Positions 1 to 62,144 of a stretch of 64,000 bases of DNA are shown piece by piece; the first letter of the stretch is position 1; every line of letters begins with the position of its first letter. This DNA comes from the human T2T-CHM13v2.0 reference genome, Homo sapiens. Both the position numbers and the translations under genes were made by a program. The DNA is taken from assembly GCF_009914755.1 (NCBI RefSeq), contig NC_060931.1; one strand, 5' to 3'. The notes under the pieces are model-generated. The model ran no database searches. It was not told where the DNA came from and saw only the letters and a list, made by a program, of their open reading frames with translations.

Positions 1-487
1 TCCTGACTACTCAACACAGGCTGTCTTGAGCCTGACCTTACTCCCAGCCACTAGGGAGCCAATCTGAGCCCGCCATGCCAAGGAGCCCTGCCCACCAACG
101 AATCAATGTTTTATCTCTGTCCTGAAGTTGCATCAGGATCTCATATCCCCCACCCTGTTAGATGAGGGGGTCCTGATGTGCTTTCCCAGTTCCTCTAAAA
201 TTGGAAAACTCTTAAAGATTGAGCCCCTGCCCCCCTCCATCATTTTATTTTTTGGCTTAGAAGATACCTCTAAATTGGGGGAACTCCTTCATCTCTCATG
301 GCTAAAATTTGTAGCAGGGATTTCACTCAGAACCTCTATGGGATTTGTGCCTGATGTGACTTCCACTGGACTTTGGGGTTCTCAACACATCATGTATTTT
401 GGGGGTTCCCTTTTTGTCCTCTCCTCCATTCAAGGACTACTGTCTTACTTCATTAAAATACAGAGAATTTTGCTGAAAAAAAATAAA
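1..487 (+). pseudogene. ARAFP: ARAF processed pseudogene, 3' end (last codons, 3'UTR, ATTAAA at 452-457, A-tail at 476-487)
   Basis: Mirror of 61112-61598, which is contiguous with ARAF kinase-domain sequence; has a poly(A) signal and A-tail. Confidence 0.8.
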
Positions 488-739
488 GTGTTTCAAATAA
501 AACCTTCCCAACCTTTGCCTCTGGGGAAAACATAATTTTATTAAATTATTTATGTATGTATTTGACCTCTGCTCTAAAAAGAGACACTACTCACTTCACA
601 CAAGGCTGTTAGTTATTTAAAAACATCCTTGAAAAGATTGTCCAAATGGAAGCTTATATAAGATGTAAAACAAATTAACCAACAGGTCTATAAAAATTGG
701 CTCCCAACAGAGTACAACATACACTTAAAAATACAGAAA

Positions 740-1260
740 TATTGGTACAACCATTACAGAAACACTGTGAAGCTTTCTCAAATAATTAAAATAGAATTGC
801 CATATTATCCAGCAATTTCACTTCCAGATATATAACCAAAGAAAATAAAATTAGTATCTAAAAGAGACACCTGCCCTTCTGTATTCATAGCAGAATTATT
901 TACAATGACAGAGACATGCAAACAATCTAGGTATCCATTAATAGATGAACGGGTAAAGAAATTATGGAATATTTATATAATGGAATATTATTCAGCCATA
1001 AAAAAGAGAATTCTGCCATTTGCTACAATACGAATGAACCTAGAGGACATTAGGTTAAATGAAATAAGCTAGACACAGAATGACAAATACTGTTTGATTT
1101 CACTCATATATGAAGCCAAAAATGTCAAAGTCATAGAAACAGAGAGTCCACAGTGGTTGCTAGGGGGTGGTGGCTGGCAGAAATGAAGACACGGTGATCA
1201 AAACTTTTAGATATAAAATAAACAAGTTCCGGTGATTTAGTGCACAGCATGGATGTTCAC
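740..1260 (+). mobile_element. Old L1 (L1MA/L1MB) 3' end; mirror at 60339-60859
   Basis: atagaattgccatattatccagcaat...gaatgaacctagaggacattaggttaaatgaaataagctag, typical L1M ORF2-end/3'UTR sequence. Confidence 0.75.
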
Positions 1261-1264
1261 GAAT

Positions 1265-1390
1265 GTTGTCTTAGGCTATCCCTATTTCTGTAATAAAATA
1301 CTTTAGAACAGGTAATTTATATAGAGTCTAAACTTACTTCTCACAGTTACAGAGGCTGAGAAGTCCAAGACCAGGGCACTAGCAGATACA
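1265..1390. mobile_element. MaLR LTR fragment (MST/MLT1); mirror at 60209-60334
   Basis: ttacttctcacagttacagaggctgagaagtccaagacc motif. Confidence 0.6.
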
Positions 1391-2581
1391 CATAATATAG
1401 TACCTGCTAATTACATTAATTTGATAATTGCACCATATATATGTATGTAGGTAGGTATTGGAGCTTCACATTTTAACCTTATATTCATTTTATGAAAACG
1501 TTGCTCCTGTACAACTTTATTCTGTCTTTCCCTCCTAGTTTGGGTACTAATGTTTAAATCTACATATGTTACAAACACAACAGTTTGTAGTTATCTGCTT
1601 ACATAATTTTATTTTTTTAAATAAGCTGAAATAAGAAAAAAGAGCACTTGTGTATTTACAGGTTTGTTTTGTTAAACTTCTTATTATTCATTATGTTATT
1701 GTAATCCTTCACTTTTTCTGACGTACTTTTTTAAATCTTTGTAGATACAAGTTATTATCTGGAAAGATTTTCTTAGCCCAATATATCTTTTCTTGAACCC
1801 ACTTTCTCTGTGCTGTAATTGGCAAATAAATTAAATTTCTTTATGTTATAGCACTGAAGATCCCATTACAAACAATATTACACAGTTGCTTTTGACAATC
1901 AGATAATATGAGAAAAAAATTTCTTATATTGCCTTAAATATTTGTTACATTTACTAGTCCTCTTTGTCTTTTGGGGGCATTAAAATTATCTGGGATTACT
2001 TGCATTCAGCCTGAAAACTTATTTTTATTCTTTCTCAAATGATCTGTCTGCTATCAAAAAATTGCCTCAGCTTTTATTTACCTGAAATGTCTTTTTTATT
2101 TATTTTTAATTGATAGTTTTTCTGAGGATAAAATTTTTAGTGGACATTTTTTCATCTTTGAGCATTGAAATATGTATATATTCTTAGAAGTTGAAAAGCT
2201 TTTAAGAAGAAAAAAAGTTTTGATCTGAGAATGTTCAGTGATTTGAGGAATTCAGAAGGGAAGGAAATGCTTTCTGATGAGTGAGCCACAAGTACTCTAT
2301 GAGTATAGATAATGTGCACCCTACATGGGTGTGATTGTGGATGTATGGAAGTTTCAGATACGTATAACTTATTTGTTGTAAGATAAAATGCTTAGGCTAC
2401 ATTTTAAAGAATTTATATGAGATAGTCCAGGTTAATCAGGATAAATGGGTAAAATTAAAATGATAATATTGGTAATAATTTTGACCGTGCAATAAATAAT
2501 ACTGATGATAGGATATCTATTGCTTTTTCAGATATATAAAATATGATCCCTCTTCACCATTAAGACGACCATAGTCCACTT

Positions 2582-3470
2582 ATGACACTATTAAAAATTG
2601 CCCTTTTTTCCCAAGCTGGTATTGGACTCACAGCCAACACCTTCCTCCTTTTCTTCTGTATCTGCACACTCCCTCTGGACTGCAGGCCTAAGCCCACTGA
2701 CCTCATCACCTGTCACCTGGCCCTTGTCCACTTAGTGATGCTCCTCACTGTGAGCTTCTTGGCATCTCTGGACCTCTTTGAGTCACAGTATTTTCAGAAT
2801 GACTTCAAGTGTAAGGTATTCTTCTACATGCATAGAGGGATGAGGGCTCTCCATCTGCACCACCTGCCTCCGGAGTGTGCTCCAGGCTGTCACCATTACC
2901 CCCGGCACCTCCTGGTTGGCAAGAATTAAACAGAAATTCACACATTGCATCTTTCACTTCTTGGGGTTCTCAGTTTCTTTCTCAGTAGTAACCTGCCTTC
3001 CTCCACTGTGGCCTCTTCTAATGTGACCGACAGCAATGTGCCAAGTATCAGTAAATACTGTTCACTTTCTTACATAAGCTACATCATCAGGAGTCTGTCT
3101 TTCATGCTGCCACTACTTGCAGATGTCTTCTTTGTAGCAGTCATGTTGCTCTCAAGGGCATACATGGTAATTCTTTTGTCCAGGCATCAGAGACAACCCC
3201 AGTACCTTCCCAGCACCAACCTGTCTGCAAAAGCCTCCCCAGAGAAAAGGGCCACCTAGACCATTCCGATGCTGGTGAGTTGCTTTGTGCTCATGTATTG
3301 GGTGGGCCTCATCATCTCATCCTCCTCAACCCTGTTATGGGCTTATGACTCATTCATCATGGGTGTCCAGATGCTTATGGGCAATTTCTATCTGTTAGCC
3401 CTTTTATGCTAATTAGTTCTGATAATAGAATAATCAAAATTTTGCATAATGTGTTATATAAATATCATAG
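2582..3470 (+). pseudogene. Vomeronasal type-1 receptor (VN1R) pseudogene
   Basis: IGLTANTFLL, RPKPTDLITCHLALVH, DFKCK, SICTTCL, SKYCS, LSRHQRQ..YL.ST.LS.KASPEKRAT. Frameshift near 2846 and stop at 3257-3259. Confidence 0.93.
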
Positions 3471-4029
3471 ATGATAATAAATTATGAAAATAATTATCTG
3501 AAAAACAGATTTGGACATCAAATAATTCAAGAAGCAGGTGATTTTATATATTATTTTATTACACTTTTATTTCATCTAAATACTTTTGAAAACTATGCTG
3601 CCAAGAACTTGGTGGTTTCTTTAAAGTCCACCGTCATAGTCCCCTGTGTCCACAAGTTTCTTATATTTAATTTTGATCCCTTAAGTTTTATATAAGACAA
3701 CTTTTCTATCTTCTTGAAGTGTACACTTAAGATGCTCCTGTTGGTAGATAAAATTTCTCTTTGTGTGTGTGTGTGTGTTTTACTTCTGAAGGTTATTTAG
3801 TTTACCCTTATTTATTAAATATATGCTAGCTATGTATTCAGTTACTGGTTGAACAATAATTTTTCAGCACTCTTAATATTTCCTTCTCAGTTTTCTGGCT
3901 CTGCCTGGGCTGTGGAGATTTCACTCTCACATGTGTAGATTCTCTCTCTCTCTCTCATGGCTTTGAAGTTTCTTCATTCTCTTTGGTGTTATGCAGTTTG
4001 ACTTATGGTGTTGGATATCTTTCTTTATT

Positions 4030-4332
4030 GCTTTTTCTTTTTTTAATTTGGTGACGGAATCTTGCTCTGTCACCCAGGCTGGAGTCTTGGCTCGCTGCAA
4101 CCTCCGCCTCTCGGGTTCAAGGGATTCTCCTGCCTCAACCTCCGGAGTAGCTGGGATCACAGGCAGCTGACACCATGCCCGGCTAAGTTTTTTGTATTTT
4201 TTTGTATTTTTAGTAGACACGGGGTTTCACCTGGTTGGCCAGGTTGGTCTTCAACTCCTGACCTCAAGTGACCCGCCCTCCTTGGCCTCGCAAAGTGCTG
4301 TGATTACAGATGTGAGCCACTACACCCAGCCT
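4030..4332 (-). mobile_element. Alu (S-like)
   Basis: Reverse Alu consensus with T-rich tail. Confidence 0.9.
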
Positions 4333-4908
4333 CTTTATTGCTTGCTTTCAGGCACAGTGTCTCTTTTAGGCACATGTCTGGTTTTTACTTTTAGAAATTT
4401 GTAAATAATTATTTATTAGTATGACTTATTATTTGTATGAATTCAAGTGAAATAATTGTGCTTTATTCTTTGTCATTCTATTCTTCACATATGTATAATT
4501 ACATTCATATTACTATTATTTTGTTTCTCTTTCTTTTATTTGGTTATATTCGTTCTGCTCAAAATTTCAGTTCATTAATCCAGTTCACTAATTCTCTCAT
4601 CAACGTAGTCTAATTTTATAATTAACTCACATATCGTATATTAAATTTCTTTATGTTTAAATTATTCCATTTCTATTTGACTCTTTTCCAAATTTCCTCA
4701 TTCAGTTTATAGTTTCCTGCTCTTTCAAAAATTATTTGGATATCATCTTTTCCTCAATTGTTTTTACCTAAACATTTAAAATATTTAAATTTAATATTTT
4801 ATATTAATATGTACAAATATAAATATATTTATAATACTTTTAAAATTTAAAATATTACAAATATATTTCCAGTATGCAAAGTTTATGTGATATCAAATTT
4901 CTTCCAAC

Positions 4909-5190
<282 letters not shown>

Positions 5191-5240
5191 AATCTTCTAA
5201 CCCTTTTTCCTCGTAGCTTATTTTCTTCTGTGCTTCATAC

Positions 5241-6850
5241 TTTTTATTTATTTTTTATTTTTTACAATAGGATCCGGTTTATTCTGCCTTGGCAGGGTGA
5301 TCCTGAGAGTGGTGGGTGTCACCCTCTCCTGGGCAGAGGGAGGGGCCGTGGGCCAGTCAAGCCAATGGTAGGAGAAGCGCTGGTGAGGGGTGGAATTTGG
5401 GGTTCAGGGGTGTAACCCCAAGAATGCAGTGAAACCAGGCCGAGGCCCAGAGGCAGCTGTGGTAGGCCAGGGCAGGGTGGAAGGCAGTGGACTGGGCCCG
5501 GGCCGGGATGACAGGGCCAAGGACTCAGGCCACACTGGCACCCCGGGAGGCGGGGCGCAGTGTCGCATGACGTAGAAAATGAATCACAGGCCCAGGGCTC
5601 ACAATAAGCACATGGACAAGTGGGCACAGACTCACAGGCCAGATGGACCTCCAGCCACGGCCGGGCCAGACTCGTGGACACAGGCGCAGTGTCACGTACA
5701 GACCACGGGGAGACATGGCACTAGGGGACAAATGGACGTGACACCACAATGCACAGGGCAGGCCACAGAGCTCGAGGGACGTGGGCAGGGGCCTTTTGGC
5801 ATTTCTGCGCTGGAATCATGTGAGACAAGGGTGGTGGCCGCTCTGGAGGTGCCTGGGGGGTTCCCTCATTACCCCTCTGGGCTTAGTCCATCCTCCACAC
5901 TGTTGTGCAGCTTCTCCACCTCCTGGTAGAGGATAAATACTGTTACCCTTATCCCTGGTCACATCCAGGGAGACGCGGTCCAGCGGCCCAGGCGGGGGAC
6001 AGTGCCGTTCTAGAGGTCCTTGAGCCCCTCCTTCCTCAGGATCTGCAGCCATAGGCCGGTGTGTTCCGCGTTTGTGCTGCTCCAGGCCCCGCATCCGGTC
6101 TCGATCCCATCCAGAGGAGCGTTTCCCAAGACACTGGCTGCGCCCACAATGGCTCCGAAGACCCCAGCGACCAGCGGGTCCATGGGCTTGCTGGGGTTGT
6201 CCCCTCGGTACCAGCTGTGCAGGGAGGTCAGGAGGAGAAGCAGACGGCCTGGTTCCAGCCCTGCTTTAGCGTGGGTGCCATGAGGCCCCGGTGAGTCCCC
6301 TTGTTCTCGCACAATCTCTCTAACCTGGTGGGAGACTCCTCTGCACTGGAGGTCTGGGAAGGTCTGGCCGTGGATGAACTTCACCTTGATGGTGTCCATG
6401 GAACATACGACCACCATGGCCTCGGCCACGCCAGCGCCCTGGCCGCACCGCAGCCAGCGCTGCCGTCAGGCCGTCCCTGGGCATCCCGCGTCTGGCTGCT
6501 GTGGAACTGGAACATTCAGAACCCAACGCCGCCCTGGAGACAAGAGCCGCAGAGCAGGGAGCCGAGGCCGCGGTGCCGGCCCGGGACGCCATGACCGCGA
6601 CAGTGCGCACGCGGGATCCATGCGCGGTGCCCGGCTGGTGCCAGCGCTCGTCCGGCTGCAGCTACGACCTCCCGCGCTCCGTGGGGAGCGGACGCCCATT
6701 TCAATGCCGCCGGCCAGGCCGCCTGCTGGTGTCGCCTTCCCCGGAGCCTCCGCTGGGCCTTCCCGGACGCGGCGCGGCGTGGCCACGGCGGGCGGGAGGC
6801 GGGCGCCCGCTGTGATCTGAAGTCCCAGCCTCCTAAACTCCGCACTGGGA
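5241..6850 (-). pseudogene. SLC25A1P: SLC25A1 (mitochondrial citrate carrier) processed pseudogene
   Basis: [79 protein letters not shown]. Intronless, with 3'UTR, AATAAA and A-tail; multiple frameshifts. Confidence 0.95.
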
Positions 6851-9189
6851 CCTTAATTTGGTTTTAACACAAATGAAGATCTCACTAAAGATAAAAAGGG
6901 ATGTCTTGGCTTCTAATTTTTGTTAAAAGCAATAGCATATGTTGTATAGGATAGTGCATTGGGGTAAATCTTTTTTTTATTATTTTTATTTTTTCATCAG
7001 CCCACTGACATTGAAAGGGGATAGGTTTTAGGTTATTGACGAGCAGTTTTCTCTCAGATAACTGCCTTAGTATAGGGGTTTGTGGTCATGTTGATGAGAG
7101 GGTAGGCTGGGGTTAAAAGTCGTTATGGCAGTAACAACCTTCTGAGGACCAGGAAATTCAAATCCCTCTCATGATACTTTGCTAATATCTCCCGAGTTTG
7201 CTGTGCCTTCCCTTTGTGCCTCTTCCCACACGTGGTTTCTTGCACTTGGCCCAGCTATATTCCACTGTTTTGACTCCATGCTTCTTAGCCTGGTGGCAGT
7301 GGTGAGGGAGTGAGGAGATCTCTAATGTTCTGAGGAAGCCTCAGACTTAGCACTGTGAACTGGGGTGTGGGGTTACTGACCGTTGAAGAGTTTCCTGCCC
7401 ATCCTGTACATGCAATGCCAGGACAAGAGCACATTCCTGTCCCTCCTTGTCCATGGTAGGGGAAACGTGCTCCTTCTCCATGCTCTTAACTCCCAGTTGA
7501 AGTGGGCCTTGAACAGTGCCCTGTAAATTAATGGTTTCTTTTCTTTATGGGAGATGCATCTGTGCAGAAATGCGGGTGTTGGCCTTGTTCCTTCACCCTC
7601 AGTTCCATGAGCTTTTCCCCAGTGCCCTTTGGCTCAGGTTTGGATGCTCTTTCTCTGCAGATTAGGCCTCATGTTATATAGGAGAGATGTGAGGGCTGTG
7701 TCTCCAGAGTTGCAGTAGTGGATGGGATAGTGGTCCCTCCCCATCAGCACTGTGGGGTAAGCATCCTCAGGATTCTAACCCCATCTTCCCTGACAGGCCT
7801 TGTAGGGTTCCTAGAAAAATTATACACAACGGTATAAACCCTACGTCTGTAGACTCCAGGGTTTCTCATTCTCCTCACCCACCCACACACAGCCACCAGG
7901 AACTAGTTCAAAAGTTCTGGCTTAATTTTACCAGTTTACATGGTCTTCAGGGTACACATAAAAGCCTGGAGCCTGTGTGACCTGCAGGCTTTCTGCATCC
8001 CCTGATGTTGGGTTTGTAGTCTGCCCTGTGACCTCAGTTCTTTAAAGGGCTCAGGAGAAACCATCCATTCATTTGAAGTTTCTCCAGCATTTTTGTTTGT
8101 TTGTTTAATGTGTAGGAGCAACTCTTTGTCAGGTCTCTATATCTACAAACTTAACTCAGAAACTAATATTTTTAAATATATTTCTTTTCTATCATACTTT
8201 TAGTGCTCCTCTACCTATGCTAATTGTTCTTCAGTATTTTTTATATTTGTATGTCTTTATCTATTTTAAAATCAGGTTTAATTCCTTCTTAATCAAATTA
8301 ATAACTTTTCATTTATTTCCCTACGTAACTTTCTTTTCAGACGTTTAAAGTATTGCTGTGTGTTTCAAGTGGAGGAGGTCATATTACAACTGACATTTGT
8401 CCTTGACTACTGGACATATCACACCAGCCCTGATTGCAGTTATACTTGAAGCCAGATCTACCCTTAACGTATATTCATTTTACTATTCAATAAATATTAA
8501 CTTATCATGAATGGTATATATTGTTACAGTTGTAGGTTTATGGACCTGAATAGACAATAAAATAAATAAAACCCAAATTACATGGCTTCAGGGGGGGTAT
8601 AACTTTTTATTAAGTTTTTAGTTAAAACATTTTTGCCTTTCTGTGATTTGCAACTTTGAGTGATTGCCTTGAAAAAGGAACCAGAGTTGAAACTGAAGTA
8701 GTAGGTGTTGGTGAGATTTTGATGGCTAAGAGCATCGGGCTCATTTTGTAACTGAAGGGGAAATTAGAACAGGTCACCAGTTCCATCTGACCACAATGCA
8801 GTTGGAATAATCACCATGGCAACCCATGACTTGTATTTTAGGGGAGAAGAATTGGAAATAAAATGACCAAGCATAAAGCTGACCCAGTCTACATGGATCT
8901 TTGTCTTTAAAACATATCTGCAATACTCATGTAGGCAGTGTATAAATAACTTGTCAGAAATATCGTTTATGCCAAGGTTCTTCTTGAATTTTCAGGATTT
9001 TGCTTCTCCAGTAGTGAGTGTGTTACTGAGCAAAAGGGGCTTTCTATCCAAAACACTAGAACCCAAAACTGTGGCACTGGGTTTTTCTTTTTAAGAAAAA
9101 AAAAAAAAAGCTGCTCCTTATTATAATTTTTGTTTATATTATAATTATGTAAGTATAATTTTAATTTTATTATAAATTTGCTTTATTAT

Positions 9190-9485
9190 AATTTTTATTT
9201 CAGTATCACTTACAGTACAAGTGGTTTTTGGTTACGTGGATGAATTATATAGCAGTGAATTCTGAGATTTTAGTGCACCTGTCACCTGAGTAGTTTATAT
9301 TGTACCAAATAGGTAGTTTTTTCATCCCTCATCCACCTCCCACTCTCTGCTTCTGAGTCTCCAAAGTCCATTACATCACTCTGTATGCCTTTGCATACGC
9401 ATAGCTTAACTCCCACTTATAAGTGAAAAATAATAGTATTTTATTTTCCATTCTTGAGTTATTTCACTTAAAATAATGGCCTCAT
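9190..9485 (-). mobile_element. L1PB-like 3' end; mirror at 52114-52409
   Basis: ggtttttggttacgtggatgaattatatagcagtgaattctgagattttagtgcacc, L1PB 3'UTR in antisense. Confidence 0.75.
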
Positions 9486-10079
9486 ATCCCTTGCCCTGAA
9501 ATTAACAGCCAGCAGGGGTGTCCTCAGTATCAAAACAAGTCGACCACACAAAGCCGTCAAAGACTCCAGGAACCCAGGTCCATGGGGTGCAGCCCTGCAA
9601 GGTGGAAAAGCTGACCAAGTCTTCCTTCCAGCCAAATCTGGAAGAAAGGCCCCTTGCCTGGAGCAGTGTTCCTGGTACCCAGGCCTCTGTGGGCATCCCT
9701 CAGCACAAAGACCCTCTCCAAGGGGCATGGGCCGGCCCTTCCAGGACCACCAGCCCAGCTCCAGAAGCCCATGGGTCATCCCCACCCTCACCTGACTGAG
9801 CTGTCCCTGAGGCTAAGGCCCAGCAGCATGAAGAGACTTCCACAGAAACCAGGGCAATAGGCTGCTCTCTGGCGGCACTGGGGGCTCAGGGTCTGGCTAG
9901 CCTGTCCCTGGCTCAAGTCACATGCCTGGAAATTAGGGTTTTCTCCTCTGCTCTTAGCATCTCCTGGGTAAACCAATAATTACCCTCCTTCATGTCTCAA
10001 AATTCACATCCATGTAAAAGGCTCTGGTGAGGGTGACATTTCCAGGAAGCCACAGCCCATGTCAACCCCCTGCAAAGCT

Positions 10080-12461: not shown

Positions 12462-12848
<387 letters not shown>

Positions 12849-14238: not shown

Positions 14239-14404
14239 GGTGCAGGTTTTTTTAATAGACATTATTTATGAAATTGAGGAAGTTTTCCTCTATTTCTAGT
14301 CTGCGGAGAGTTTTTCTCATGAATGGGTTTTGGATATTGTCAAATGATTTTTCTGAATGTACTGATGAAATCTTATCTTTTTAAAACTTAATATGATGAA
14401 CTAA

Positions 14405-15946: not shown

Positions 15947-16250
<304 letters not shown>

Positions 16251-45348: not shown

Positions 45349-45652
<304 letters not shown>

Positions 45653-48709: not shown

Positions 48710-48750
48710 GAATTACCTCAGGTTTTGCTCCTCTGATAAAACACCAGAAA

Positions 48751-49137
<387 letters not shown>

Positions 49138-51519: not shown

Positions 51520-54500
51520 AGCTTTGCAGGGGGTTGACATGGGCTGTGGCTTCCTGGAAATGTCACCCTCACCAGAGCCTTTTACATGGATGTGAATTTT
51601 GAGACATGAAGGAGGGTAATTATTGGTTTACCCAGGAGATGCTAAGAGCAGAGGAGAAAACCCTAATTTCCAGGCATGTGACTTGAGCCAGGGACAGGCT
51701 AGCCAGACCCTGAGCCCCCAGTGCCGCCAGAGAGCAGCCTATTGCCCTGGTTTCTGTGGAAGTCTCTTCATGCTGCTGGGCCTTAGCCTCAGGGACAGCT
51801 CAGTCAGGTGAGGGTGGGGATGACCCATGGGCTTCTGGAGCTGGGCTGGTGGTCCTGGAAGGGCCGGCCCATGCCCCTTGGAGAGGGTCTTTGTGCTGAG
51901 GGATGCCCACAGAGGCCTGGGTACCAGGAACACTGCTCCAGGCAAGGGGCCTTTCTTCCAGATTTGGCTGGAAGGAAGACTTGGTCAGCTTTTCCACCTT
52001 GCAGGGCTGCACCCCATGGACCTGGGTTCCTGGAGTCTTTGACGGCTTTGTGTGGTCGACTTGTTTTGATACTGAGGACACCCCTGCTGGCTGTTAATTT
52101 CAGGGCAAGGGATATGAGGCCATTATTTTAAGTGAAATAACTCAAGAATGGAAAATAAAATACTATTATTTTTCACTTATAAGTGGGAGTTAAGCTATGC
52201 GTATGCAAAGGCATACAGAGTGATGTAATGGACTTTGGAGACTCAGAAGCAGAGAGTGGGAGGTGGATGAGGGATGAAAAAACTACCTATTTGGTACAAT
52301 ATAAACTACTCAGGTGACAGGTGCACTAAAATCTCAGAATTCACTGCTATATAATTCATCCACGTAACCAAAAACCACTTGTACTGTAAGTGATACTGAA
52401 ATAAAAATTATAATAAAGCAAATTTATAATAAAATTAAAATTATACTTACATAATTATAATATAAACAAAAATTATAATAAGGAGCAGCTTTTTTTTTTT
52501 TTTCTTAAAAAGAAAAACCCAGTGCCACAGTTTTGGGTTCTAGTGTTTTGGATAGAAAGCCCCTTTTGCTCAGTAACACACTCACTACTGGAGAAGCAAA
52601 ATCCTGAAAATTCAAGAAGAACCTTGGCATAAACGATATTTCTGACAAGTTATTTATACACTGCCTACATGAGTATTGCAGATATGTTTTAAAGACAAAG
52701 ATCCATGTAGACTGGGTCAGCTTTATGCTTGGTCATTTTATTTCCAATTCTTCTCCCCTAAAATACAAGTCATGGGTTGCCATGGTGATTATTCCAACTG
52801 CATTGTGGTCAGATGGAACTGGTGACCTGTTCTAATTTCCCCTTCAGTTACAAAATGAGCCCGATGCTCTTAGCCATCAAAATCTCACCAACACCTACTA
52901 CTTCAGTTTCAACTCTGGTTCCTTTTTCAAGGCAATCACTCAAAGTTGCAAATCACAGAAAGGCAAAAATGTTTTAACTAAAAACTTAATAAAAAGTTAT
53001 ACCCCCCCTGAAGCCATGTAATTTGGGTTTTATTTATTTTATTGTCTATTCAGGTCCATAAACCTACAACTGTAACAATATATACCATTCATGATAAGTT
53101 AATATTTATTGAATAGTAAAATGAATATACGTTAAGGGTAGATCTGGCTTCAAGTATAACTGCAATCAGGGCTGGTGTGATATGTCCAGTAGTCAAGGAC
53201 AAATGTCAGTTGTAATATGACCTCCTCCACTTGAAACACACAGCAATACTTTAAACGTCTGAAAAGAAAGTTACGTAGGGAAATAAATGAAAAGTTATTA
53301 ATTTGATTAAGAAGGAATTAAACCTGATTTTAAAATAGATAAAGACATACAAATATAAAAAATACTGAAGAACAATTAGCATAGGTAGAGGAGCACTAAA
53401 AGTATGATAGAAAAGAAATATATTTAAAAATATTAGTTTCTGAGTTAAGTTTGTAGATATAGAGACCTGACAAAGAGTTGCTCCTACACATTAAACAAAC
53501 AAACAAAAATGCTGGAGAAACTTCAAATGAATGGATGGTTTCTCCTGAGCCCTTTAAAGAACTGAGGTCACAGGGCAGACTACAAACCCAACATCAGGGG
53601 ATGCAGAAAGCCTGCAGGTCACACAGGCTCCAGGCTTTTATGTGTACCCTGAAGACCATGTAAACTGGTAAAATTAAGCCAGAACTTTTGAACTAGTTCC
53701 TGGTGGCTGTGTGTGGGTGGGTGAGGAGAATGAGAAACCCTGGAGTCTACAGACGTAGGGTTTATACCGTTGTGTATAATTTTTCTAGGAACCCTACAAG
53801 GCCTGTCAGGGAAGATGGGGTTAGAATCCTGAGGATGCTTACCCCACAGTGCTGATGGGGAGGGACCACTATCCCATCCACTACTGCAACTCTGGAGACA
53901 CAGCCCTCACATCTCTCCTATATAACATGAGGCCTAATCTGCAGAGAAAGAGCATCCAAACCTGAGCCAAAGGGCACTGGGGAAAAGCTCATGGAACTGA
54001 GGGTGAAGGAACAAGGCCAACACCCGCATTTCTGCACAGATGCATCTCCCATAAAGAAAAGAAACCATTAATTTACAGGGCACTGTTCAAGGCCCACTTC
54101 AACTGGGAGTTAAGAGCATGGAGAAGGAGCACGTTTCCCCTACCATGGACAAGGAGGGACAGGAATGTGCTCTTGTCCTGGCATTGCATGTACAGGATGG
54201 GCAGGAAACTCTTCAACGGTCAGTAACCCCACACCCCAGTTCACAGTGCTAAGTCTGAGGCTTCCTCAGAACATTAGAGATCTCCTCACTCCCTCACCAC
54301 TGCCACCAGGCTAAGAAGCATGGAGTCAAAACAGTGGAATATAGCTGGGCCAAGTGCAAGAAACCACGTGTGGGAAGAGGCACAAAGGGAAGGCACAGCA
54401 AACTCGGGAGATATTAGCAAAGTATCATGAGAGGGATTTGAATTTCCTGGTCCTCAGAAGGTTGTTACTGCCATAACGACTTTTAACCCCAGCCTACCCT

Positions 54501-54748
54501 CTCATCAACATGACCACAAACCCCTATACTAAGGCAGTTATCTGAGAGAAAACTGCTCGTCAATAACCTAAAACCTATCCCCTTTCAATGTCAGTGGGCT
54601 GATGAAAAAATAAAAATAATAAAAAAAAGATTTACCCCAATGCACTATCCTATACAACATATGCTATTGCTTTTAACAAAAATTAGAAGCCAAGACATCC
54701 CTTTTTATCTTTAGTGAGATCTTCATTTGTGTTAAAACCAAATTAAGG

Positions 54749-56358
54749 TCCCAGTGCGGAGTTTAGGAGGCTGGGACTTCAGATCACAGCGGGCGCCCGC
54801 CTCCCGCCCGCCGTGGCCACGCCGCGCCGCGTCCGGGAAGGCCCAGCGGAGGCTCCGGGGAAGGCGACACCAGCAGGCGGCCTGGCCGGCGGCATTGAAA
54901 TGGGCGTCCGCTCCCCACGGAGCGCGGGAGGTCGTAGCTGCAGCCGGACGAGCGCTGGCACCAGCCGGGCACCGCGCATGGATCCCGCGTGCGCACTGTC
55001 GCGGTCATGGCGTCCCGGGCCGGCACCGCGGCCTCGGCTCCCTGCTCTGCGGCTCTTGTCTCCAGGGCGGCGTTGGGTTCTGAATGTTCCAGTTCCACAG
55101 CAGCCAGACGCGGGATGCCCAGGGACGGCCTGACGGCAGCGCTGGCTGCGGTGCGGCCAGGGCGCTGGCGTGGCCGAGGCCATGGTGGTCGTATGTTCCA
55201 TGGACACCATCAAGGTGAAGTTCATCCACGGCCAGACCTTCCCAGACCTCCAGTGCAGAGGAGTCTCCCACCAGGTTAGAGAGATTGTGCGAGAACAAGG
55301 GGACTCACCGGGGCCTCATGGCACCCACGCTAAAGCAGGGCTGGAACCAGGCCGTCTGCTTCTCCTCCTGACCTCCCTGCACAGCTGGTACCGAGGGGAC
55401 AACCCCAGCAAGCCCATGGACCCGCTGGTCGCTGGGGTCTTCGGAGCCATTGTGGGCGCAGCCAGTGTCTTGGGAAACGCTCCTCTGGATGGGATCGAGA
55501 CCGGATGCGGGGCCTGGAGCAGCACAAACGCGGAACACACCGGCCTATGGCTGCAGATCCTGAGGAAGGAGGGGCTCAAGGACCTCTAGAACGGCACTGT
55601 CCCCCGCCTGGGCCGCTGGACCGCGTCTCCCTGGATGTGACCAGGGATAAGGGTAACAGTATTTATCCTCTACCAGGAGGTGGAGAAGCTGCACAACAGT
55701 GTGGAGGATGGACTAAGCCCAGAGGGGTAATGAGGGAACCCCCCAGGCACCTCCAGAGCGGCCACCACCCTTGTCTCACATGATTCCAGCGCAGAAATGC
55801 CAAAAGGCCCCTGCCCACGTCCCTCGAGCTCTGTGGCCTGCCCTGTGCATTGTGGTGTCACGTCCATTTGTCCCCTAGTGCCATGTCTCCCCGTGGTCTG
55901 TACGTGACACTGCGCCTGTGTCCACGAGTCTGGCCCGGCCGTGGCTGGAGGTCCATCTGGCCTGTGAGTCTGTGCCCACTTGTCCATGTGCTTATTGTGA
56001 GCCCTGGGCCTGTGATTCATTTTCTACGTCATGCGACACTGCGCCCCGCCTCCCGGGGTGCCAGTGTGGCCTGAGTCCTTGGCCCTGTCATCCCGGCCCG
56101 GGCCCAGTCCACTGCCTTCCACCCTGCCCTGGCCTACCACAGCTGCCTCTGGGCCTCGGCCTGGTTTCACTGCATTCTTGGGGTTACACCCCTGAACCCC
56201 AAATTCCACCCCTCACCAGCGCTTCTCCTACCATTGGCTTGACTGGCCCACGGCCCCTCCCTCTGCCCAGGAGAGGGTGACACCCACCACTCTCAGGATC
56301 ACCCTGCCAAGGCAGAATAAACCGGATCCTATTGTAAAAAATAAAAAATAAATAAAAA
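54749..56358 (+). pseudogene. SLC25A1P: SLC25A1 processed pseudogene (mirror copy)
   Basis: Same motifs as the left copy; ends aataaaccggatcctattgt followed by an A-rich tail at 56316-56358. Confidence 0.95.
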
Positions 56359-56408
56359 GTATGAAGCACAGAAGAAAATAAGCTACGAGGAAAAAGGGTT
56401 AGAAGATT

Positions 56409-56690
<282 letters not shown>

Positions 56691-57266
56691 GTTGGAAGAA
56701 ATTTGATATCACATAAACTTTGCATACTGGAAATATATTTGTAATATTTTAAATTTTAAAAGTATTATAAATATATTTATATTTGTACATATTAATATAA
56801 AATATTAAATTTAAATATTTTAAATGTTTAGGTAAAAACAATTGAGGAAAAGATGATATCCAAATAATTTTTGAAAGAGCAGGAAACTATAAACTGAATG
56901 AGGAAATTTGGAAAAGAGTCAAATAGAAATGGAATAATTTAAACATAAAGAAATTTAATATACGATATGTGAGTTAATTATAAAATTAGACTACGTTGAT
57001 GAGAGAATTAGTGAACTGGATTAATGAACTGAAATTTTGAGCAGAACGAATATAACCAAATAAAAGAAAGAGAAACAAAATAATAGTAATATGAATGTAA
57101 TTATACATATGTGAAGAATAGAATGACAAAGAATAAAGCACAATTATTTCACTTGAATTCATACAAATAATAAGTCATACTAATAAATAATTATTTACAA
57201 ATTTCTAAAAGTAAAAACCAGACATGTGCCTAAAAGAGACACTGTGCCTGAAAGCAAGCAATAAAG

Positions 57267-57569
57267 AGGCTGGGTGTAGTGGCTCACATCTGTAATCACA
57301 GCACTTTGCGAGGCCAAGGAGGGCGGGTCACTTGAGGTCAGGAGTTGAAGACCAACCTGGCCAACCAGGTGAAACCCCGTGTCTACTAAAAATACAAAAA
57401 AATACAAAAAACTTAGCCGGGCATGGTGTCAGCTGCCTGTGATCCCAGCTACTCCGGAGGTTGAGGCAGGAGAATCCCTTGAACCCGAGAGGCGGAGGTT
57501 GCAGCGAGCCAAGACTCCAGCCTGGGTGACAGAGCAAGATTCCGTCACCAAATTAAAAAAAGAAAAAGC
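57267..57569 (+). mobile_element. Alu (mirror)
   Basis: ggctgggtgtagtggctcac...A-tail. Confidence 0.9.
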
Positions 57570-58128
57570 AATAAAGAAAGATATCCAACACCATAAGTCA
57601 AACTGCATAACACCAAAGAGAATGAAGAAACTTCAAAGCCATGAGAGAGAGAGAGAGAATCTACACATGTGAGAGTGAAATCTCCACAGCCCAGGCAGAG
57701 CCAGAAAACTGAGAAGGAAATATTAAGAGTGCTGAAAAATTATTGTTCAACCAGTAACTGAATACATAGCTAGCATATATTTAATAAATAAGGGTAAACT
57801 AAATAACCTTCAGAAGTAAAACACACACACACACACAAAGAGAAATTTTATCTACCAACAGGAGCATCTTAAGTGTACACTTCAAGAAGATAGAAAAGTT
57901 GTCTTATATAAAACTTAAGGGATCAAAATTAAATATAAGAAACTTGTGGACACAGGGGACTATGACGGTGGACTTTAAAGAAACCACCAAGTTCTTGGCA
58001 GCATAGTTTTCAAAAGTATTTAGATGAAATAAAAGTGTAATAAAATAATATATAAAATCACCTGCTTCTTGAATTATTTGATGTCCAAATCTGTTTTTCA
58101 GATAATTATTTTCATAATTTATTATCAT

Positions 58129-59017
58129 CTATGATATTTATATAACACATTATGCAAAATTTTGATTATTCTATTATCAGAACTAATTAGCATAAAAGGG
58201 CTAACAGATAGAAATTGCCCATAAGCATCTGGACACCCATGATGAATGAGTCATAAGCCCATAACAGGGTTGAGGAGGATGAGATGATGAGGCCCACCCA
58301 ATACATGAGCACAAAGCAACTCACCAGCATCGGAATGGTCTAGGTGGCCCTTTTCTCTGGGGAGGCTTTTGCAGACAGGTTGGTGCTGGGAAGGTACTGG
58401 GGTTGTCTCTGATGCCTGGACAAAAGAATTACCATGTATGCCCTTGAGAGCAACATGACTGCTACAAAGAAGACATCTGCAAGTAGTGGCAGCATGAAAG
58501 ACAGACTCCTGATGATGTAGCTTATGTAAGAAAGTGAACAGTATTTACTGATACTTGGCACATTGCTGTCGGTCACATTAGAAGAGGCCACAGTGGAGGA
58601 AGGCAGGTTACTACTGAGAAAGAAACTGAGAACCCCAAGAAGTGAAAGATGCAATGTGTGAATTTCTGTTTAATTCTTGCCAACCAGGAGGTGCCGGGGG
58701 TAATGGTGACAGCCTGGAGCACACTCCGGAGGCAGGTGGTGCAGATGGAGAGCCCTCATCCCTCTATGCATGTAGAAGAATACCTTACACTTGAAGTCAT
58801 TCTGAAAATACTGTGACTCAAAGAGGTCCAGAGATGCCAAGAAGCTCACAGTGAGGAGCATCACTAAGTGGACAAGGGCCAGGTGACAGGTGATGAGGTC
58901 AGTGGGCTTAGGCCTGCAGTCCAGAGGGAGTGTGCAGATACAGAAGAAAAGGAGGAAGGTGTTGGCTGTGAGTCCAATACCAGCTTGGGAAAAAAGGGCA
59001 ATTTTTAATAGTGTCAT
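58129..59017 (-). pseudogene. VN1R pseudogene (mirror copy)
   Basis: ORF fragments 58670-59017 and 58340-58654 are identical to the left copy. Confidence 0.93.
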
Positions 59018-61111
59018 AAGTGGACTATGGTCGTCTTAATGGTGAAGAGGGATCATATTTTATATATCTGAAAAAGCAATAGATATCCTATCATCAGTAT
59101 TATTTATTGCACGGTCAAAATTATTACCAATATTATCATTTTAATTTTACCCATTTATCCTGATTAACCTGGACTATCTCATATAAATTCTTTAAAATGT
59201 AGCCTAAGCATTTTATCTTACAACAAATAAGTTATACGTATCTGAAACTTCCATACATCCACAATCACACCCATGTAGGGTGCACATTATCTATACTCAT
59301 AGAGTACTTGTGGCTCACTCATCAGAAAGCATTTCCTTCCCTTCTGAATTCCTCAAATCACTGAACATTCTCAGATCAAAACTTTTTTTCTTCTTAAAAG
59401 CTTTTCAACTTCTAAGAATATATACATATTTCAATGCTCAAAGATGAAAAAATGTCCACTAAAAATTTTATCCTCAGAAAAACTATCAATTAAAAATAAA
59501 TAAAAAAGACATTTCAGGTAAATAAAAGCTGAGGCAATTTTTTGATAGCAGACAGATCATTTGAGAAAGAATAAAAATAAGTTTTCAGGCTGAATGCAAG
59601 TAATCCCAGATAATTTTAATGCCCCCAAAAGACAAAGAGGACTAGTAAATGTAACAAATATTTAAGGCAATATAAGAAATTTTTTTCTCATATTATCTGA
59701 TTGTCAAAAGCAACTGTGTAATATTGTTTGTAATGGGATCTTCAGTGCTATAACATAAAGAAATTTAATTTATTTGCCAATTACAGCACAGAGAAAGTGG
59801 GTTCAAGAAAAGATATATTGGGCTAAGAAAATCTTTCCAGATAATAACTTGTATCTACAAAGATTTAAAAAAGTACGTCAGAAAAAGTGAAGGATTACAA
59901 TAACATAATGAATAATAAGAAGTTTAACAAAACAAACCTGTAAATACACAAGTGCTCTTTTTTCTTATTTCAGCTTATTTAAAAAAATAAAATTATGTAA
60001 GCAGATAACTACAAACTGTTGTGTTTGTAACATATGTAGATTTAAACATTAGTACCCAAACTAGGAGGGAAAGACAGAATAAAGTTGTACAGGAGCAACG
60101 TTTTCATAAAATGAATATAAGGTTAAAATGTGAAGCTCCAATACCTACCTACATACATATATATGGTGCAATTATCAAATTAATGTAATTAGCAGGTACT
60201 ATATTATGTGTATCTGCTAGTGCCCTGGTCTTGGACTTCTCAGCCTCTGTAACTGTGAGAAGTAAGTTTAGACTCTATATAAATTACCTGTTCTAAAGTA
60301 TTTTATTACAGAAATAGGGATAGCCTAAGACAACATTCGTGAACATCCATGCTGTGCACTAAATCACCGGAACTTGTTTATTTTATATCTAAAAGTTTTG
60401 ATCACCGTGTCTTCATTTCTGCCAGCCACCACCCCCTAGCAACCACTGTGGACTCTCTGTTTCTATGACTTTGACATTTTTGGCTTCATATATGAGTGAA
60501 ATCAAACAGTATTTGTCATTCTGTGTCTAGCTTATTTCATTTAACCTAATGTCCTCTAGGTTCATTCGTATTGTAGCAAATGGCAGAATTCTCTTTTTTA
60601 TGGCTGAATAATATTCCATTATATAAATATTCCATAATTTCTTTACCCGTTCATCTATTAATGGATACCTAGATTGTTTGCATGTCTCTGTCATTGTAAA
60701 TAATTCTGCTATGAATACAGAAGGGCAGGTGTCTCTTTTAGATACTAATTTTATTTTCTTTGGTTATATATCTGGAAGTGAAATTGCTGGATAATATGGC
60801 AATTCTATTTTAATTATTTGAGAAAGCTTCACAGTGTTTCTGTAATGGTTGTACCAATATTTCTGTATTTTTAAGTGTATGTTGTACTCTGTTGGGAGCC
60901 AATTTTTATAGACCTGTTGGTTAATTTGTTTTACATCTTATATAAGCTTCCATTTGGACAATCTTTTCAAGGATGTTTTTAAATAACTAACAGCCTTGTG
61001 TGAAGTGAGTAGTGTCTCTTTTTAGAGCAGAGGTCAAATACATACATAAATAATTTAATAAAATTATGTTTTCCCCAGAGGCAAAGGTTGGGAAGGTTTT
61101 ATTTGAAACAC

Positions 61112-62144
61112 TTTATTTTTTTTCAGCAAAATTCTCTGTATTTTAATGAAGTAAGACAGTAGTCCTTGAATGGAGGAGAGGACAAAAAGGGAACCCCCAA
61201 AATACATGATGTGTTGAGAACCCCAAAGTCCAGTGGAAGTCACATCAGGCACAAATCCCATAGAGGTTCTGAGTGAAATCCCTGCTACAAATTTTAGCCA
61301 TGAGAGATGAAGGAGTTCCCCCAATTTAGAGGTATCTTCTAAGCCAAAAAATAAAATGATGGAGGGGGGCAGGGGCTCAATCTTTAAGAGTTTTCCAATT
61401 TTAGAGGAACTGGGAAAGCACATCAGGACCCCCTCATCTAACAGGGTGGGGGATATGAGATCCTGATGCAACTTCAGGACAGAGATAAAACATTGATTCG
61501 TTGGTGGGCAGGGCTCCTTGGCATGGCGGGCTCAGATTGGCTCCCTAGTGGCTGGGAGTAAGGTCAGGCTCAAGACAGCCTGTGTTGAGTAGTCAGGAAG
61601 GAAACTCATCAGCTTGGGTTTGATAAAAGGACGATTTAGAGGTATTCCCCTCCATCTTGGGGAGCGACCCTTGCAGCAGAAAAATTGTGGTGAGAGTCTG
61701 GGGCAAATGGAGCCACTCCTTTTGCTGGAACATGAGGCAGTCAGACAGCAGGCACCACATGGCTTCGGGCAGTTGCTGGAGATTTTTCTGAGGTCCAGGG
61801 ATGAAGAGTCACAGCCCACCATAAAGATAATCTGGTCACAGCTGCCAATGTGGCTGTAAGGCAGTGAGCCAGTCGTGAGATTTTAGAGCACAGCCACACT
61901 GGCATAGACGTCCGACTGGAAGCTGAAGGGGTTCAGGTCAGCTGCGATCCACAAAACAGAACCTGAAGGCTTCTCCAAGGGCTGGGCCCTGCTTCACTCT
62001 GTCTTCACTGTGGCCAGACGAGAGTCACTCATCTTTGTGTTGAAAAATGTTATTAGACTTGAGATCGCCTTGGATGATATTCTTGGCATGGAGGTAGTTC
62101 ATGCCCTGGGCAGTCTGCTGGGCCATGTCAATTAGCTGGACTAT
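61112..62144 (-). pseudogene. ARAFP: ARAF processed pseudogene (C-terminal kinase lobe + 3'UTR), 5' truncated or interrupted
   Basis: Minus strand reads [33 protein letters not shown]...LATVKT...[15 protein letters not shown]...FQSDVY...[20 protein letters not shown]...KISSNCPK. It is intronless with stops and frameshifts. QPLE.PSGS and PYSHIG are ARAF-type rather than BRAF or RAF1. Confidence 0.9.

What the first reader, a model, noticed from the sequence alone, without database searches (positions are those of the whole stretch)
1..61598. Giant near-perfect palindrome: >=22.3 kb arms around a 17 kb spacer
Seen: 1-22326 is the reverse complement of 39280-61598. All ORF pairs translate identically, and the long poly(A), (GT)n and (GA)n tracts keep a constant offset. 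The ARAF pseudogene crosses position 1/61598, so the arms probably extend further. Inference: a very recent inverted duplication, or one homogenised by arm-to-arm gene conversion as in sex-chromosome palindromes. It predicts recurrent NAHR inversion of the spacer and fold-back or isodicentric fragility.
Basis: partly seen in the sequence, partly recalled or inferred. Interest (0 to 1): 0.85.

Follow-up and report, generated by a model that had tools for sequence, protein, structure and literature searches.

The report
Core of a 309-kb autosomal palindrome
The window holds the centre of a 309-kb mirror-image duplication on human chromosome 7 whose inner 75 kb of each arm is almost letter-perfect while the outer half is 2-3% diverged, a known kind of structure carrying only pseudogenes and non-coding RNAs.

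Summary
Window 1-22326 is the reverse complement of 61598-39280, with 1 substitution and one 7-bp microsatellite indel. The arms run far beyond the window: left arm chr7:64,416,890-64,564,326 (147.4 kb), right arm 64,581,280-64,725,698 (144.4 kb), around a 16,953-bp non-palindromic spacer.

The palindrome has two tiers. The outer ~72 kb is evenly 2-3% diverged and carries kb-scale arm-specific indels. Within 445 bp, just past the 3' ends of ZNF733P and ZNF734P, it switches in register to an inner ~74.8 kb with only 28 substitutions and 11 small indels. Those differences thin out towards the spacer: 15, 12 and 1 substitutions in 6.6, 37.2 and 31.0 kb.

This excludes a single very recent duplication of the whole arms. 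It fits an old inverted duplication whose inner part was later copied arm-to-arm, with conversion continuing. A rival I cannot exclude is that the inner 75 kb is a later secondary inverted duplication made by template switching. The left junction cuts an L1.

Arms hold no coding genes. It is a known kind of structure, and I found no paper on this locus. Inversion and fragility predictions were not testable.

The parts
1..22326 (.). Spacer-proximal 22.3 kb of the left arm. The whole arm is chr7:64,416,890-64,564,326, window -125110..22326. This part carries ARAFP3 (3' part), VN1R30P, an SLC25A1 pseudogene, LOC100287704 and the first exons of LINC03075.
   Evidence: given annotation.
22327..39279 (.). 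Spacer, 16,953 bp, GC 35.4%, not palindromic. It carries VN1R31P (-) and VN1R32P (+).
39280..61598 (.). Right-arm segment that mirrors window 1-22326. It carries SLC25A1P2, VN1R33P, ARAFP2 (part) and LOC100287834.
61599..64000 (.). Continuation of the right arm. It mirrors the 2.4 kb upstream of the window. The right arm runs on to window 183698 (chr7:64,725,698).
14372..14372 (.). The only substitution between the arms inside the window's exact-match part. Its partner is at 47227.
20416..20461 (.). (TTCT)n tract, 7 bp longer than its mirror (AAAG)n at 41145-41183. This is the only indel between the arms inside the window.
22331..23239 (-). 5' part of an L1 (5' UTR plus the start of ORF1), cut off exactly at the left arm/spacer junction. 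Its 3' part is missing.
   Evidence: 91-92% identity to at least 38 genomic copies, all starting at the junction. ORFs. PF17489 L1 ORF1p trimerization domain, E = 1.6e-12.
38967..39213 (.). Alu-sized masked repeat 66 bp inside the spacer from the right junction. The right junction itself lies in unmasked sequence.
   Evidence: The Alu label is inferred from size and multi-copy cross-matches.
23870..25056 (-). VN1R31P region. Its only inverted partner in the spacer is the VN1R32P region (33945-35146), at 67.7% identity. These are old paralogues, not a continuation of the palindrome.
34156..34782 (.). Exonic sense-antisense overlap of the two convergent lncRNAs, LINC03075 (+) and LOC101929050 (-). 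They start at mirrored arm positions and meet in the spacer.
   Evidence: Given RefSeq annotation. The mirror arithmetic uses the offsets.

Best explanation
The window is the centre of a 308.8-kb palindromic segmental duplication in 7q11.21, with arms of 147.4 and 144.4 kb and a 17-kb spacer.

Step 1 (inferred): an inverted duplication arose long ago. Today its outer ~72 kb per arm is evenly 2-3% diverged, roughly 10-25 Myr depending on the rate used.

Step 2 (inferred): the inner ~74.8 kb next to the spacer was later overwritten arm-to-arm, in register, by non-reciprocal copying. This could be gene conversion in the broad sense: many tracts, or a long replicative one. It leaves a sharp edge just beyond the 3' ends of ZNF733P and ZNF734P.

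Step 3 (inferred): conversion went on afterwards, more often or more recently near the spacer. Substitution density falls from 2.3 per kb to 0.32 per kb to 0.03 per kb. The last 31 kb would have been made identical about 1,300 generations ago (95% interval 33-7,200, at 1.25e-8 per bp per generation, a recalled rate).

No coding gene lies in the arms, so the homogenisation would be a by-product of intrachromatid recombination between nearby inverted copies, not something kept by selection. The high-identity zone would sustain itself because about 2% divergence leaves too little uninterrupted identity for recombination to start. That last point rests on established knowledge, recalled, and was not tested here.
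For: Shown directly:
- One continuous colinear alignment crosses the identity step, with no junction or large indel there.
- The last dense differences are at -52522 and the next sparse one at -52077. Outside the step there are 164 substitutions in 7,404 bp. Inside there are 28 in 74,849 bp.
- Outer identity is flat at about 96-98% in 3-kb bins right up to the step, with no intermediate patches.
- Outer arms carry arm-specific blocks of 351, 575 and 2,265 bp, a ~3.75 against 3.97-kb non-homologous block, and a 108-bp block. The largest inner indel is 18 bp.
- Inner substitutions are not uniform: 15, 12 and 1 in 6.6, 37.2 and 31.0 kb, Kolmogorov-Smirnov test against uniform p = 4e-6.
- 26 of 34 microsatellite tracts have the same length in both inner arms.
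- Steady-state rates implied by the three zones are 1.1e-5, 7.7e-5 and 7.8e-4 per site per generation. These bracket the 2.2e-4 quoted for Y palindromes in PMC3723533.
- Inner-arm GC is 41.0%, against 39.4-39.9% in the outer arms and 35.4% in the spacer. This is weak evidence, in the direction expected for GC-biased conversion.
- No other copy above 92% identity turned up elsewhere in the genome (where only 36 of 61,211 candidates were scored).
Against: - Only one haplotype was seen. No conversion event is observed directly, and no ape orthologue or second human haplotype could be read.
- The flat outer divergence and the abrupt step look more like the end-point of one discrete event than a long-term conversion equilibrium. 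A single 75-kb tract would be far longer than the tracts inferred for Y palindrome P6 (mean 2 kb, maximum above 9 kb; PMC3723533).
- The zone limits used for the 15/12/1 counts were chosen after seeing the data, and zone 3 rests on a single substitution.
- PRDM9-type motif density is the same in all zones, so it does not explain the gradient.
- The GC difference is small and could reflect sequence content.
- The L1 cut at the left junction, with at most a 5-of-6-bp microhomology, is what a later template-switch duplication would also leave.
Confidence: 0.5

Rival explanations
1. Secondary inverted duplication. An older pair of inverted duplicates (today's outer arms) once flanked a single-copy inner segment plus spacer. 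About 0.2% divergence ago, a replicative template switch copied the 75-kb segment in inverted order. One switch used the homology of the old inverted repeats and is now the identity step. The other was a microhomology junction inside an L1 and is now the left arm/spacer junction. This mechanism resembles the inverted-repeat-mediated rearrangements described at disease loci. Later conversion produced the internal gradient.
For: - The step is abrupt (445 bp) and in register, and outer divergence is flat up to it.
- The left junction cuts an L1 that keeps its 5' part and lacks its 3' part. That is the reverse of normal 5' truncation, so it is a breakpoint.
- Only an imperfect 6-bp microhomology lies at the junction.
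- There are no large arm-specific indels in the inner 75 kb.
- Abstract starts in the search listing for PMC11293582, PMC4352052 and 10.1101/2023.10.02.560172 describe inverted low-copy repeats mediating template switches with two junctions in cis.
Against: - A single event predicts even divergence across the inner zone, but it varies about 70-fold, so conversion is needed anyway.
- The L1 cut could equally date from the first duplication.
- No triplicated segment exists. The best other match in the genome is 92% identical.
- No outgroup reaches the junction. The chr7:65.12-65.13 Mb paralogue stops at window 16249.
Confidence: 0.35
2. One very recent inverted duplication created the whole palindrome.
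For: The 22.3 kb seen in the window is 99.96% identical, with identical microsatellites.
Against: The same arms continue for ~72 kb at 2-3% substitution divergence, with several arm-specific insertions of 0.35-4 kb. A single event cannot give 0.003% divergence and 2.2% divergence in one colinear arm.
Confidence: 0.03
3. Assembly or polishing artefact. The inner arms would be one locus assembled twice, or two diverged copies wrongly made identical.
For: - The inner arms have stretches of up to 14,973 bp without any distinguishing difference. Such stretches are hard to assemble.
Against: - The two copies are anchored in clearly different outer arms (2-3% divergence, different insertions) and differ at 39 sites spaced at most 15 kb apart.
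- Both arms carry separately named pseudogene pairs in RefSeq: ARAFP3/ARAFP2, VN1R30P/VN1R33P, ZNF733P/ZNF734P and PHKG1P1/PHKG1P2.
- An hg19-based table places VN1R31P and PHKG1P2 about 155 kb apart, against 144 kb here (PMC5516382). So the older clone-based reference has at least the right arm at a similar scale.
Confidence: 0.04

Closest known systems
Human Y-chromosome palindromes P1-P8 (arm-to-arm gene conversion)
   Same: - Large inverted repeats around a unique spacer, with arm identity at or above 99.9%.
- Differences are few paralogous variants.
- The implied conversion rates here (1e-5 to 8e-4 per site per generation) bracket the 2.2e-4 quoted in PMC3723533.
   Different: - This one is autosomal and pericentromeric.
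- No coding or testis gene families are annotated.
- The high-identity zone is only the inner half of a longer, older inverted homology.
- Conversion is inferred here, not shown across lineages.
Human X-chromosome palindromes (26 annotated; criteria: arms above 8 kb, identity above 99%)
   Same: - The inner zone meets the stated criteria.
- Its 74.8-kb arms and 17-kb spacer fall within the published ranges of 8-140 kb and 77 bp-358 kb (PMC8327919).
- That paper reports structural instability centred on spacers. Here array copy-number calls overlap the spacer and arms (PMC5516382).
   Different: - 21 of 26 X palindromes carry protein-coding genes and are argued to be preserved by selection. This one carries only pseudogenes and lncRNAs.
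- The authors of PMC8327919 note that autosomal palindromes had not been studied in this way.
Ordinary inverted segmental duplications of human pericentromeric regions
   Same: - It is a mosaic of pseudogene duplicons (VN1R, SLC25A1, ARAF, KRAB-ZNF, PHKG1, SEPTIN7).
- Further copies lie at chr7:65.1 Mb (89-92% identity), chr19:30.3 Mb, chr16:38.9-39.0 Mb and chr7:56.76 Mb (70-87% identity).
- The outer arms are 97-98% identical.
   Different: It has a two-tier identity profile with an abrupt in-register step, and an internal gradient towards the spacer.
Mouse chr12 palindromic SD locus SD12A1
   Same: It is a large autosomal palindromic SD architecture (abstract of PMC13688818).
   Different: The mouse locus is Mb-scale and about 93% identical. 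Its authors report no evidence of inter-arm conversion. Here the inner 75 kb is 99.96% identical.
Inverted-repeat-mediated template-switch rearrangements (DUP-TRP/INV-DUP loci such as MECP2 and PLP1)
   Same: Here one junction would lie inside older inverted repeats and one at a non-homologous or microhomology site. That matches the step plus the L1-cutting junction (abstract starts).
   Different: Those are recent pathogenic copy gains with a triplicated segment. Here there are only two copies, fixed in the reference, with later divergence and a gradient.

Membership tests
Large palindrome as annotated on human X and Y (criteria in PMC8327919) | Inverted repeat arms longer than 8 kb | tested here: met
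   Arms are 147.4 and 144.4 kb. The high-identity part is 74.8 kb per arm.
Large palindrome as annotated on human X and Y (criteria in PMC8327919) | Arm-to-arm identity above 99% (inner zone) | tested here: met
   28 substitutions and 11 indels in 74,849 bp. 3-kb bins range from 99.47% to 100%.
Large palindrome as annotated on human X and Y (criteria in PMC8327919) | Arm-to-arm identity above 99% over the whole inverted homology | tested here: not met
   The outer ~72 kb is 94-98% identical in full 3-kb bins, with 2.0-3.0% substitutions per alignment block.
Large palindrome as annotated on human X and Y (criteria in PMC8327919) | Unique spacer between the arms | tested here: met
   The spacer is 16,953 bp. 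Its only internal inverted match of 1 kb or more is the VN1R31P/VN1R32P pair at 67.7%.
Large palindrome as annotated on human X and Y (criteria in PMC8327919) | Ongoing arm-to-arm gene conversion shown by variant states across haplotypes or species | not testable with these tools
   Only one human haplotype is available.
Large palindrome as annotated on human X and Y (criteria in PMC8327919) | Protein-coding (often testis-biased) gene families in the arms. This is typical rather than strictly defining. | tested here: not met
   RefSeq lists only pseudogenes and lncRNAs. The longest inner-arm ORF is a 317-aa zinc-finger fragment of ZNF733P. The others are 226 aa or shorter, and some look like L1 pieces (that label is recalled). 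Expression was not examined.
Segmental duplication (at least 1 kb and at least 90% identity; definition recalled) | Length and identity thresholds | tested here: met
Inverted-repeat-mediated template-switch product (DUP-TRP/INV-DUP type) | One junction within pre-existing inverted repeats | tested here: inconclusive
   The in-register identity step at -52522..-52077 is compatible, but it is equally a conversion end-point.
Inverted-repeat-mediated template-switch product (DUP-TRP/INV-DUP type) | Second junction without extended homology | tested here: inconclusive
   The left junction cuts an L1 and shows at most 5 of 6 bp of microhomology. Its age relative to the step is unknown.
Inverted-repeat-mediated template-switch product (DUP-TRP/INV-DUP type) | Inverted triplicated segment | tested here: not met
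   There are only two near-identical copies. The best other genomic match is 92% identical (where only 36 of 61,211 candidates were scored).

The most novel reading that the evidence does not exclude
This gene-free autosomal palindrome may be a natural experiment in intrachromatid gene conversion. Conversion would be active in the present human lineage at Y-palindrome-like rates. It would fall off about 70-fold with distance from the spacer, as partner separation grows from 17 kb to about 170 kb. It would stop dead where older divergence of about 2% begins. If so, palindrome homogenisation needs no selection on arm genes. The 39 arm differences would be polymorphic 'pseudo-heterozygous' sites from which conversion rate, tract length, distance dependence and the divergence threshold could be measured in pangenome haplotypes with normal meiotic recombination as a background.
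Probability: 0.35. Interest if true: 0.6.

Novelty: new member of a known kind. Interest (0 to 1): 0.4.

Why it matters
Large near-identical palindromes have been studied almost only on X and Y. There, gene conversion is tied to arguments about protecting testis genes. This is an autosomal example with 75 kb of 99.96% identity and only pseudogenes and lncRNAs. It suggests that homogenisation can be a default consequence of closely spaced inverted copies.

Its sharp boundary against 2%-diverged homology, and its gradient towards the spacer, give measurable handles on how distance and divergence limit conversion.

Practically, short reads multi-map across about 150 kb here. The spacer orientation can only be phased through sparse differences up to 15 kb apart. 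Array studies already call common copy-number changes across the region (PMC5516382). Variant calls and association signals here therefore deserve caution.

Tried and rejected
1. Spacer as a degraded inner palindrome: rejected. The only inverted self-match of 1 kb or more is the VN1R31P/VN1R32P pair at 67.7%. The rest are Alu-sized repeats (rows under 150 bp dropped).

2. Outgroup for the junctions: failed.
- The chr7:65.12-65.13 Mb paralogue stops at window 16249 at an Alu-like repeat (rows under 250 bp dropped).
- Searches with junction-spanning queries were swamped by interspersed repeats.
- The arm's last kb has no paralogue better than 74%.
- One 66% match on chr1 crosses the right junction. 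It could not be fetched or confirmed.

3. PRDM9-type 13-mer density as a cause of the gradient: no difference between zones, 0.06-0.15 per kb.

4. GC content as a mark of biased conversion: only a 1-1.6 point excess in the inner arms. Not decisive.

5. Search for the missing 3' part of the junction L1 beside the left outer boundary: no masked repeat lies in the 1.2 kb outside it.

6. Literature on this locus: none found.
- Searches found no description of this palindrome.
- PMC10234299 and the bioRxiv version of the T2T segmental-duplication paper have no passage with chr7, 7q11 or palindrom.
- PMC8600007 has no passage on position effects along arms.
- The ~450-kb 7q11.21 structural variant of 10.1101/2023.07.11.548567 is tied there to RABGEF1, which lies 3.3 Mb distal, so it is another locus. 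The ~449-kb inversion of 10.64898/2025.12.16.694547 is probably the same variant.
- PMC10378017 concerns a single case and was not used.
- Warburton et al. 2004 (PMC524409) is not held. It may list this repeat.
- Supplementary tables of segmental-duplication and inversion catalogues were closed. They very likely contain this pair.

Full report
OBSERVATION

A minus-strand self-alignment of the window gives a single long hit: 1-22332 against 61598-39274, 99.960% over 22,332 columns, 2 mismatches and 1 gap opening (rows under 500 bp dropped). BLAST only runs on through an imperfect 6-bp match.

Within 1-22326 the arms differ by one substitution (14372/47227) and by 7 bp in a (TTCT)n tract. The mirrored poly(A)23, (GT)8, (TC)8 and (GA)7 tracts are present and equal in length. 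The spacer is 22327-39279 (16,953 bp).

TRUE EXTENT

I fetched 300 kb of flanking chr7 sequence and aligned the region against itself. Coordinates below are window coordinates, equal to the chr7 position minus 64,542,000.

- The same alignment continues without a break to -59904/121584, 99.59% over 82,346 columns.
- Inverted homology continues to -124841/183471.
- A more sensitive look carries it to -125110/183698, where the left arm has an extra 42-bp tandem copy.
- Nothing inverted matches beyond that in the 15-20 kb examined on either side (rows under 400 bp dropped).
- The palindrome is therefore chr7:64,416,890-64,725,698, 308,809 bp, with arms of 147,437 and 144,419 bp.
- RefSeq's mirrored pseudogene pairs agree with this: ARAFP3/ARAFP2, VN1R30P/VN1R33P, ZNF733P/ZNF734P and PHKG1P1/PHKG1P2.

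TWO TIERS

In 3-kb bins along the left arm, the outer 24 bins are 94.1-98.2% identical. Two bins with under 800 aligned bp are lower. There is no trend and there are no high-identity patches. All bins from -52841 inward are 99.47-100% (only colinear alignments of at least 500 bp with a diagonal offset under 6 kb were used).

Substitution divergence per outer block is 2.0-3.0%. The switch is abrupt. Dense differences run up to -52522 (right arm 114146), and the next, sparse ones begin at -52077 (113701). That lies 83-528 bp beyond the annotated 3' end of ZNF733P, and 109-554 bp beyond that of ZNF734P.

The alignment is colinear across the switch. The outer arms carry arm-specific blocks of 351, 575 and 2,265 bp, a block of about 3.75 against 3.97 kb, and one of 108 bp. 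The largest inner indel is 18 bp.

GRADIENT INSIDE THE INNER ZONE

The inner 74,849 bp have 28 substitutions and 11 indels.

| Zone (window coordinates) | Length | Substitutions |
|---|---|---|
| -52.5 to -45.9 kb | 6.6 kb | 15 |
| -45.9 to -8.7 kb | 37.2 kb | 12 |
| -8.7 kb to the spacer | 31.0 kb | 1 |

- A Kolmogorov-Smirnov test against a uniform spread gives p = 4e-6.
- The zone limits were chosen after seeing the data, so the binomial p-values (0.004 and 1e-6) are indicative only.
- At 1.25e-8 per bp per generation (a recalled rate), the zones correspond to about 91,000, 12,900 and 1,300 generations since identity. The 95% interval for the last is 33-7,200.
- As steady-state conversion rates, the same numbers give 1.1e-5, 7.7e-5 and 7.8e-4 per site per generation.
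- Passages of PMC3723533 quote 2.2e-4 per nucleotide per generation for Y palindromes, tracts of mean 2 kb and maximum above 9 kb for palindrome P6, and rare inversions.
- 26 of 34 microsatellite tracts are equal in length between the inner arms.

JUNCTIONS AND CONTENT

- **Left junction.** The spacer begins with a ~905-bp interspersed repeat (22331-23239). It is 91-92% identical to at least 38 genomic copies, and all of those matches start exactly at the junction. A minus-strand ORF there carries the L1 ORF1p trimerization domain (PF17489, E = 1.6e-12). The L1 therefore keeps its 5' part and lacks its 3' part. That is the opposite of ordinary 5' truncation and marks a rearrangement breakpoint (inference).
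- **Right junction.** It lies in unmasked sequence, 66 bp from an Alu-sized repeat.
- **Spacer.** It is not palindromic. Only VN1R31P and VN1R32P match in inverted order, at 67.7%.
- **Coding potential.** No protein-coding gene is annotated in the arms or spacer. The longest inner-arm ORF is a 317-aa zinc-finger fragment.
- **GC content.** 41.0% in the inner arms, 39.4-39.9% in the outer arms and 35.4% in the spacer.
- **Other copies.** Copies of parts of the arm exist at chr7:65.1 Mb (89-92% identity), chr19:30.3 Mb, chr16:38.9-39.0 Mb and chr7:56.76 Mb (70-87% identity). The SLC25A1 parent gene is on chr22. Nothing above 92% was listed (36 of 61,211 candidates scored; the window's own arms were not listed by that search).

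INTERPRETATION

A single recent duplication of the whole structure is excluded by the 2-3% outer divergence. The in-register step means that one arm's inner 75 kb was copied onto the other side using the older inverted homology as a guide.

Whether the other side already held a diverged copy or held nothing cannot be told from one haplotype.
- If it held a diverged copy, the event was gene conversion of an old complete palindrome. This is my best explanation, at 0.5.
- If it held nothing, the event was a secondary inverted duplication by template switching, with the L1-cutting junction as its second breakpoint. This is the rival, at 0.35.

The flat outer profile and the abrupt step favour at least one discrete event about 0.2% divergence ago. 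The internal gradient requires later conversion in either case. A plausible reason for the gradient is that partner sites near the spacer are only 17 kb apart, while those at the step are about 170 kb apart. This is inference and was not tested. PRDM9-type motifs do not explain it.

An assembly artefact is unlikely, because the two copies are anchored in different outer arms and differ at 39 sites at most 15 kb apart. Reads could not be checked.

WHAT IS KNOWN

- **Palindrome criteria.** The inner zone meets the criteria used for X palindromes: arms above 8 kb and identity above 99%. Published ranges are 8-140 kb for arms and 77 bp-358 kb for spacers, and 21 of 26 X palindromes carry coding genes (PMC8327919, passages). 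That paper notes that autosomal palindromes remain to be studied.
- **This locus.** My searches and look-ups found no description of this locus as a palindrome. Warburton et al. 2004 was not held, and supplementary catalogues were closed. Any of these may list it.
- **Copy-number calls.** PMC5516382 (passages including the text of Table 1) reports array 'deletion' segments at hg19 chr7:62,764,248-62,990,599 in about 16% of its cohort. It quotes database frequencies ranging from very rare deletions to gains in 121 of 270. Anchoring on VN1R31P and PHKG1P2 in that table and, this spans roughly from inside ZNF733P, through the spacer, to most or all of the right arm. This is my approximate mapping, with an offset uncertainty of about 11 kb. 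It shows that the region is called copy-number variable.
- **Comparison cases.** The mouse chr12 palindromic SD (abstract) is an autosomal case without conversion. Inverted-repeat-mediated template switching is described in the abstract starts of PMC11293582, PMC4352052 and 10.1101/2023.10.02.560172 (search listing only).

VERDICT

The finding is real and much larger than reported. It is a new, well-resolved member of a known kind, a palindromic segmental duplication with arm-to-arm homogenisation. Its interest lies in being autosomal, gene-free and two-tiered with a gradient. Interest is scored at 0.4.

Noticed in passing
window 10875-51010 (exon overlap at 34156-34782): LINC03075 (+) and LOC101929050 (-) start at mirrored positions in the two arms and share mirrored exons, for example 19015-19124 against 42475-42584. 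They converge in the spacer, where their exons overlap antisense over VN1R32P. This could yield double-stranded RNA.
   Followed up: no
window 36010-36810: A young interspersed-repeat piece sits in the spacer, 96-98% identical to many genomic copies. It has a 172-aa ORF at 36270-36788 (-) that looks like the end of L1 ORF2 (that label is recalled; no Pfam hit). It also matches pieces in the right outer arm at 94-95%.
   Followed up: partly
chr7:64,417,117-64,417,200 (window -124883..-124800): A 42-bp unit is present twice in tandem near the outer end of the left arm and once in the right arm.
   Followed up: partly
chr7:64,465,394-64,482,122 (window -76606..-59878) and its mirror, window 121693-136387: A rearranged patch in the outer arms: 2.27 kb present only on the left, a non-homologous block of ~3.75 kb against 3.97 kb, and a 309-bp overlap on the right. 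The identity step lies 7.4 kb inside this patch, not at it.
   Followed up: partly
chr7:64,482,096-64,489,500 (window -59904..-52500): Substitutions between the outer arms show a transition:transversion ratio of only 87:77. The inner arms give 19:10. This is unusually transversion-rich for human sequence.
   Followed up: no
chr7:64,490,267-64,491,220 (window -51733..-50780), minus strand: A 317-aa open reading frame of C2H2 zinc fingers sits in ZNF733P, and in its mirror ZNF734P. It lies in the 0.23%-diverged belt just inside the identity step.
   Followed up: no
window 39214-39650, against chr1:226,725,399-226,725,836: A 66%-identity match runs across the right arm/spacer junction. It may mean that the spacer and right arm are the ancestral contiguous sequence. 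It could not be fetched.
   Followed up: partly
chr7:65,122,000-65,146,400; chr19:30.31-30.33 Mb; chr16:38.95-39.02 Mb; chr7:56.76 Mb: Older copies of the SLC25A1P-VN1R-ARAFP duplicon, 70-92% identical, lie in other pericentromeric or duplication-rich regions. The chr7:65.1 Mb copy has the orientation of the right arm.
   Followed up: partly
hg19 chr7:62,764,248-62,990,599 (approximately window -45 kb to +175/184 kb): Array-based copy-number 'deletion' segments in about 16% of one cohort overlap the inner left arm, the spacer and the right arm (PMC5516382). Probes in near-identical arms make such calls uncertain.
   Followed up: partly
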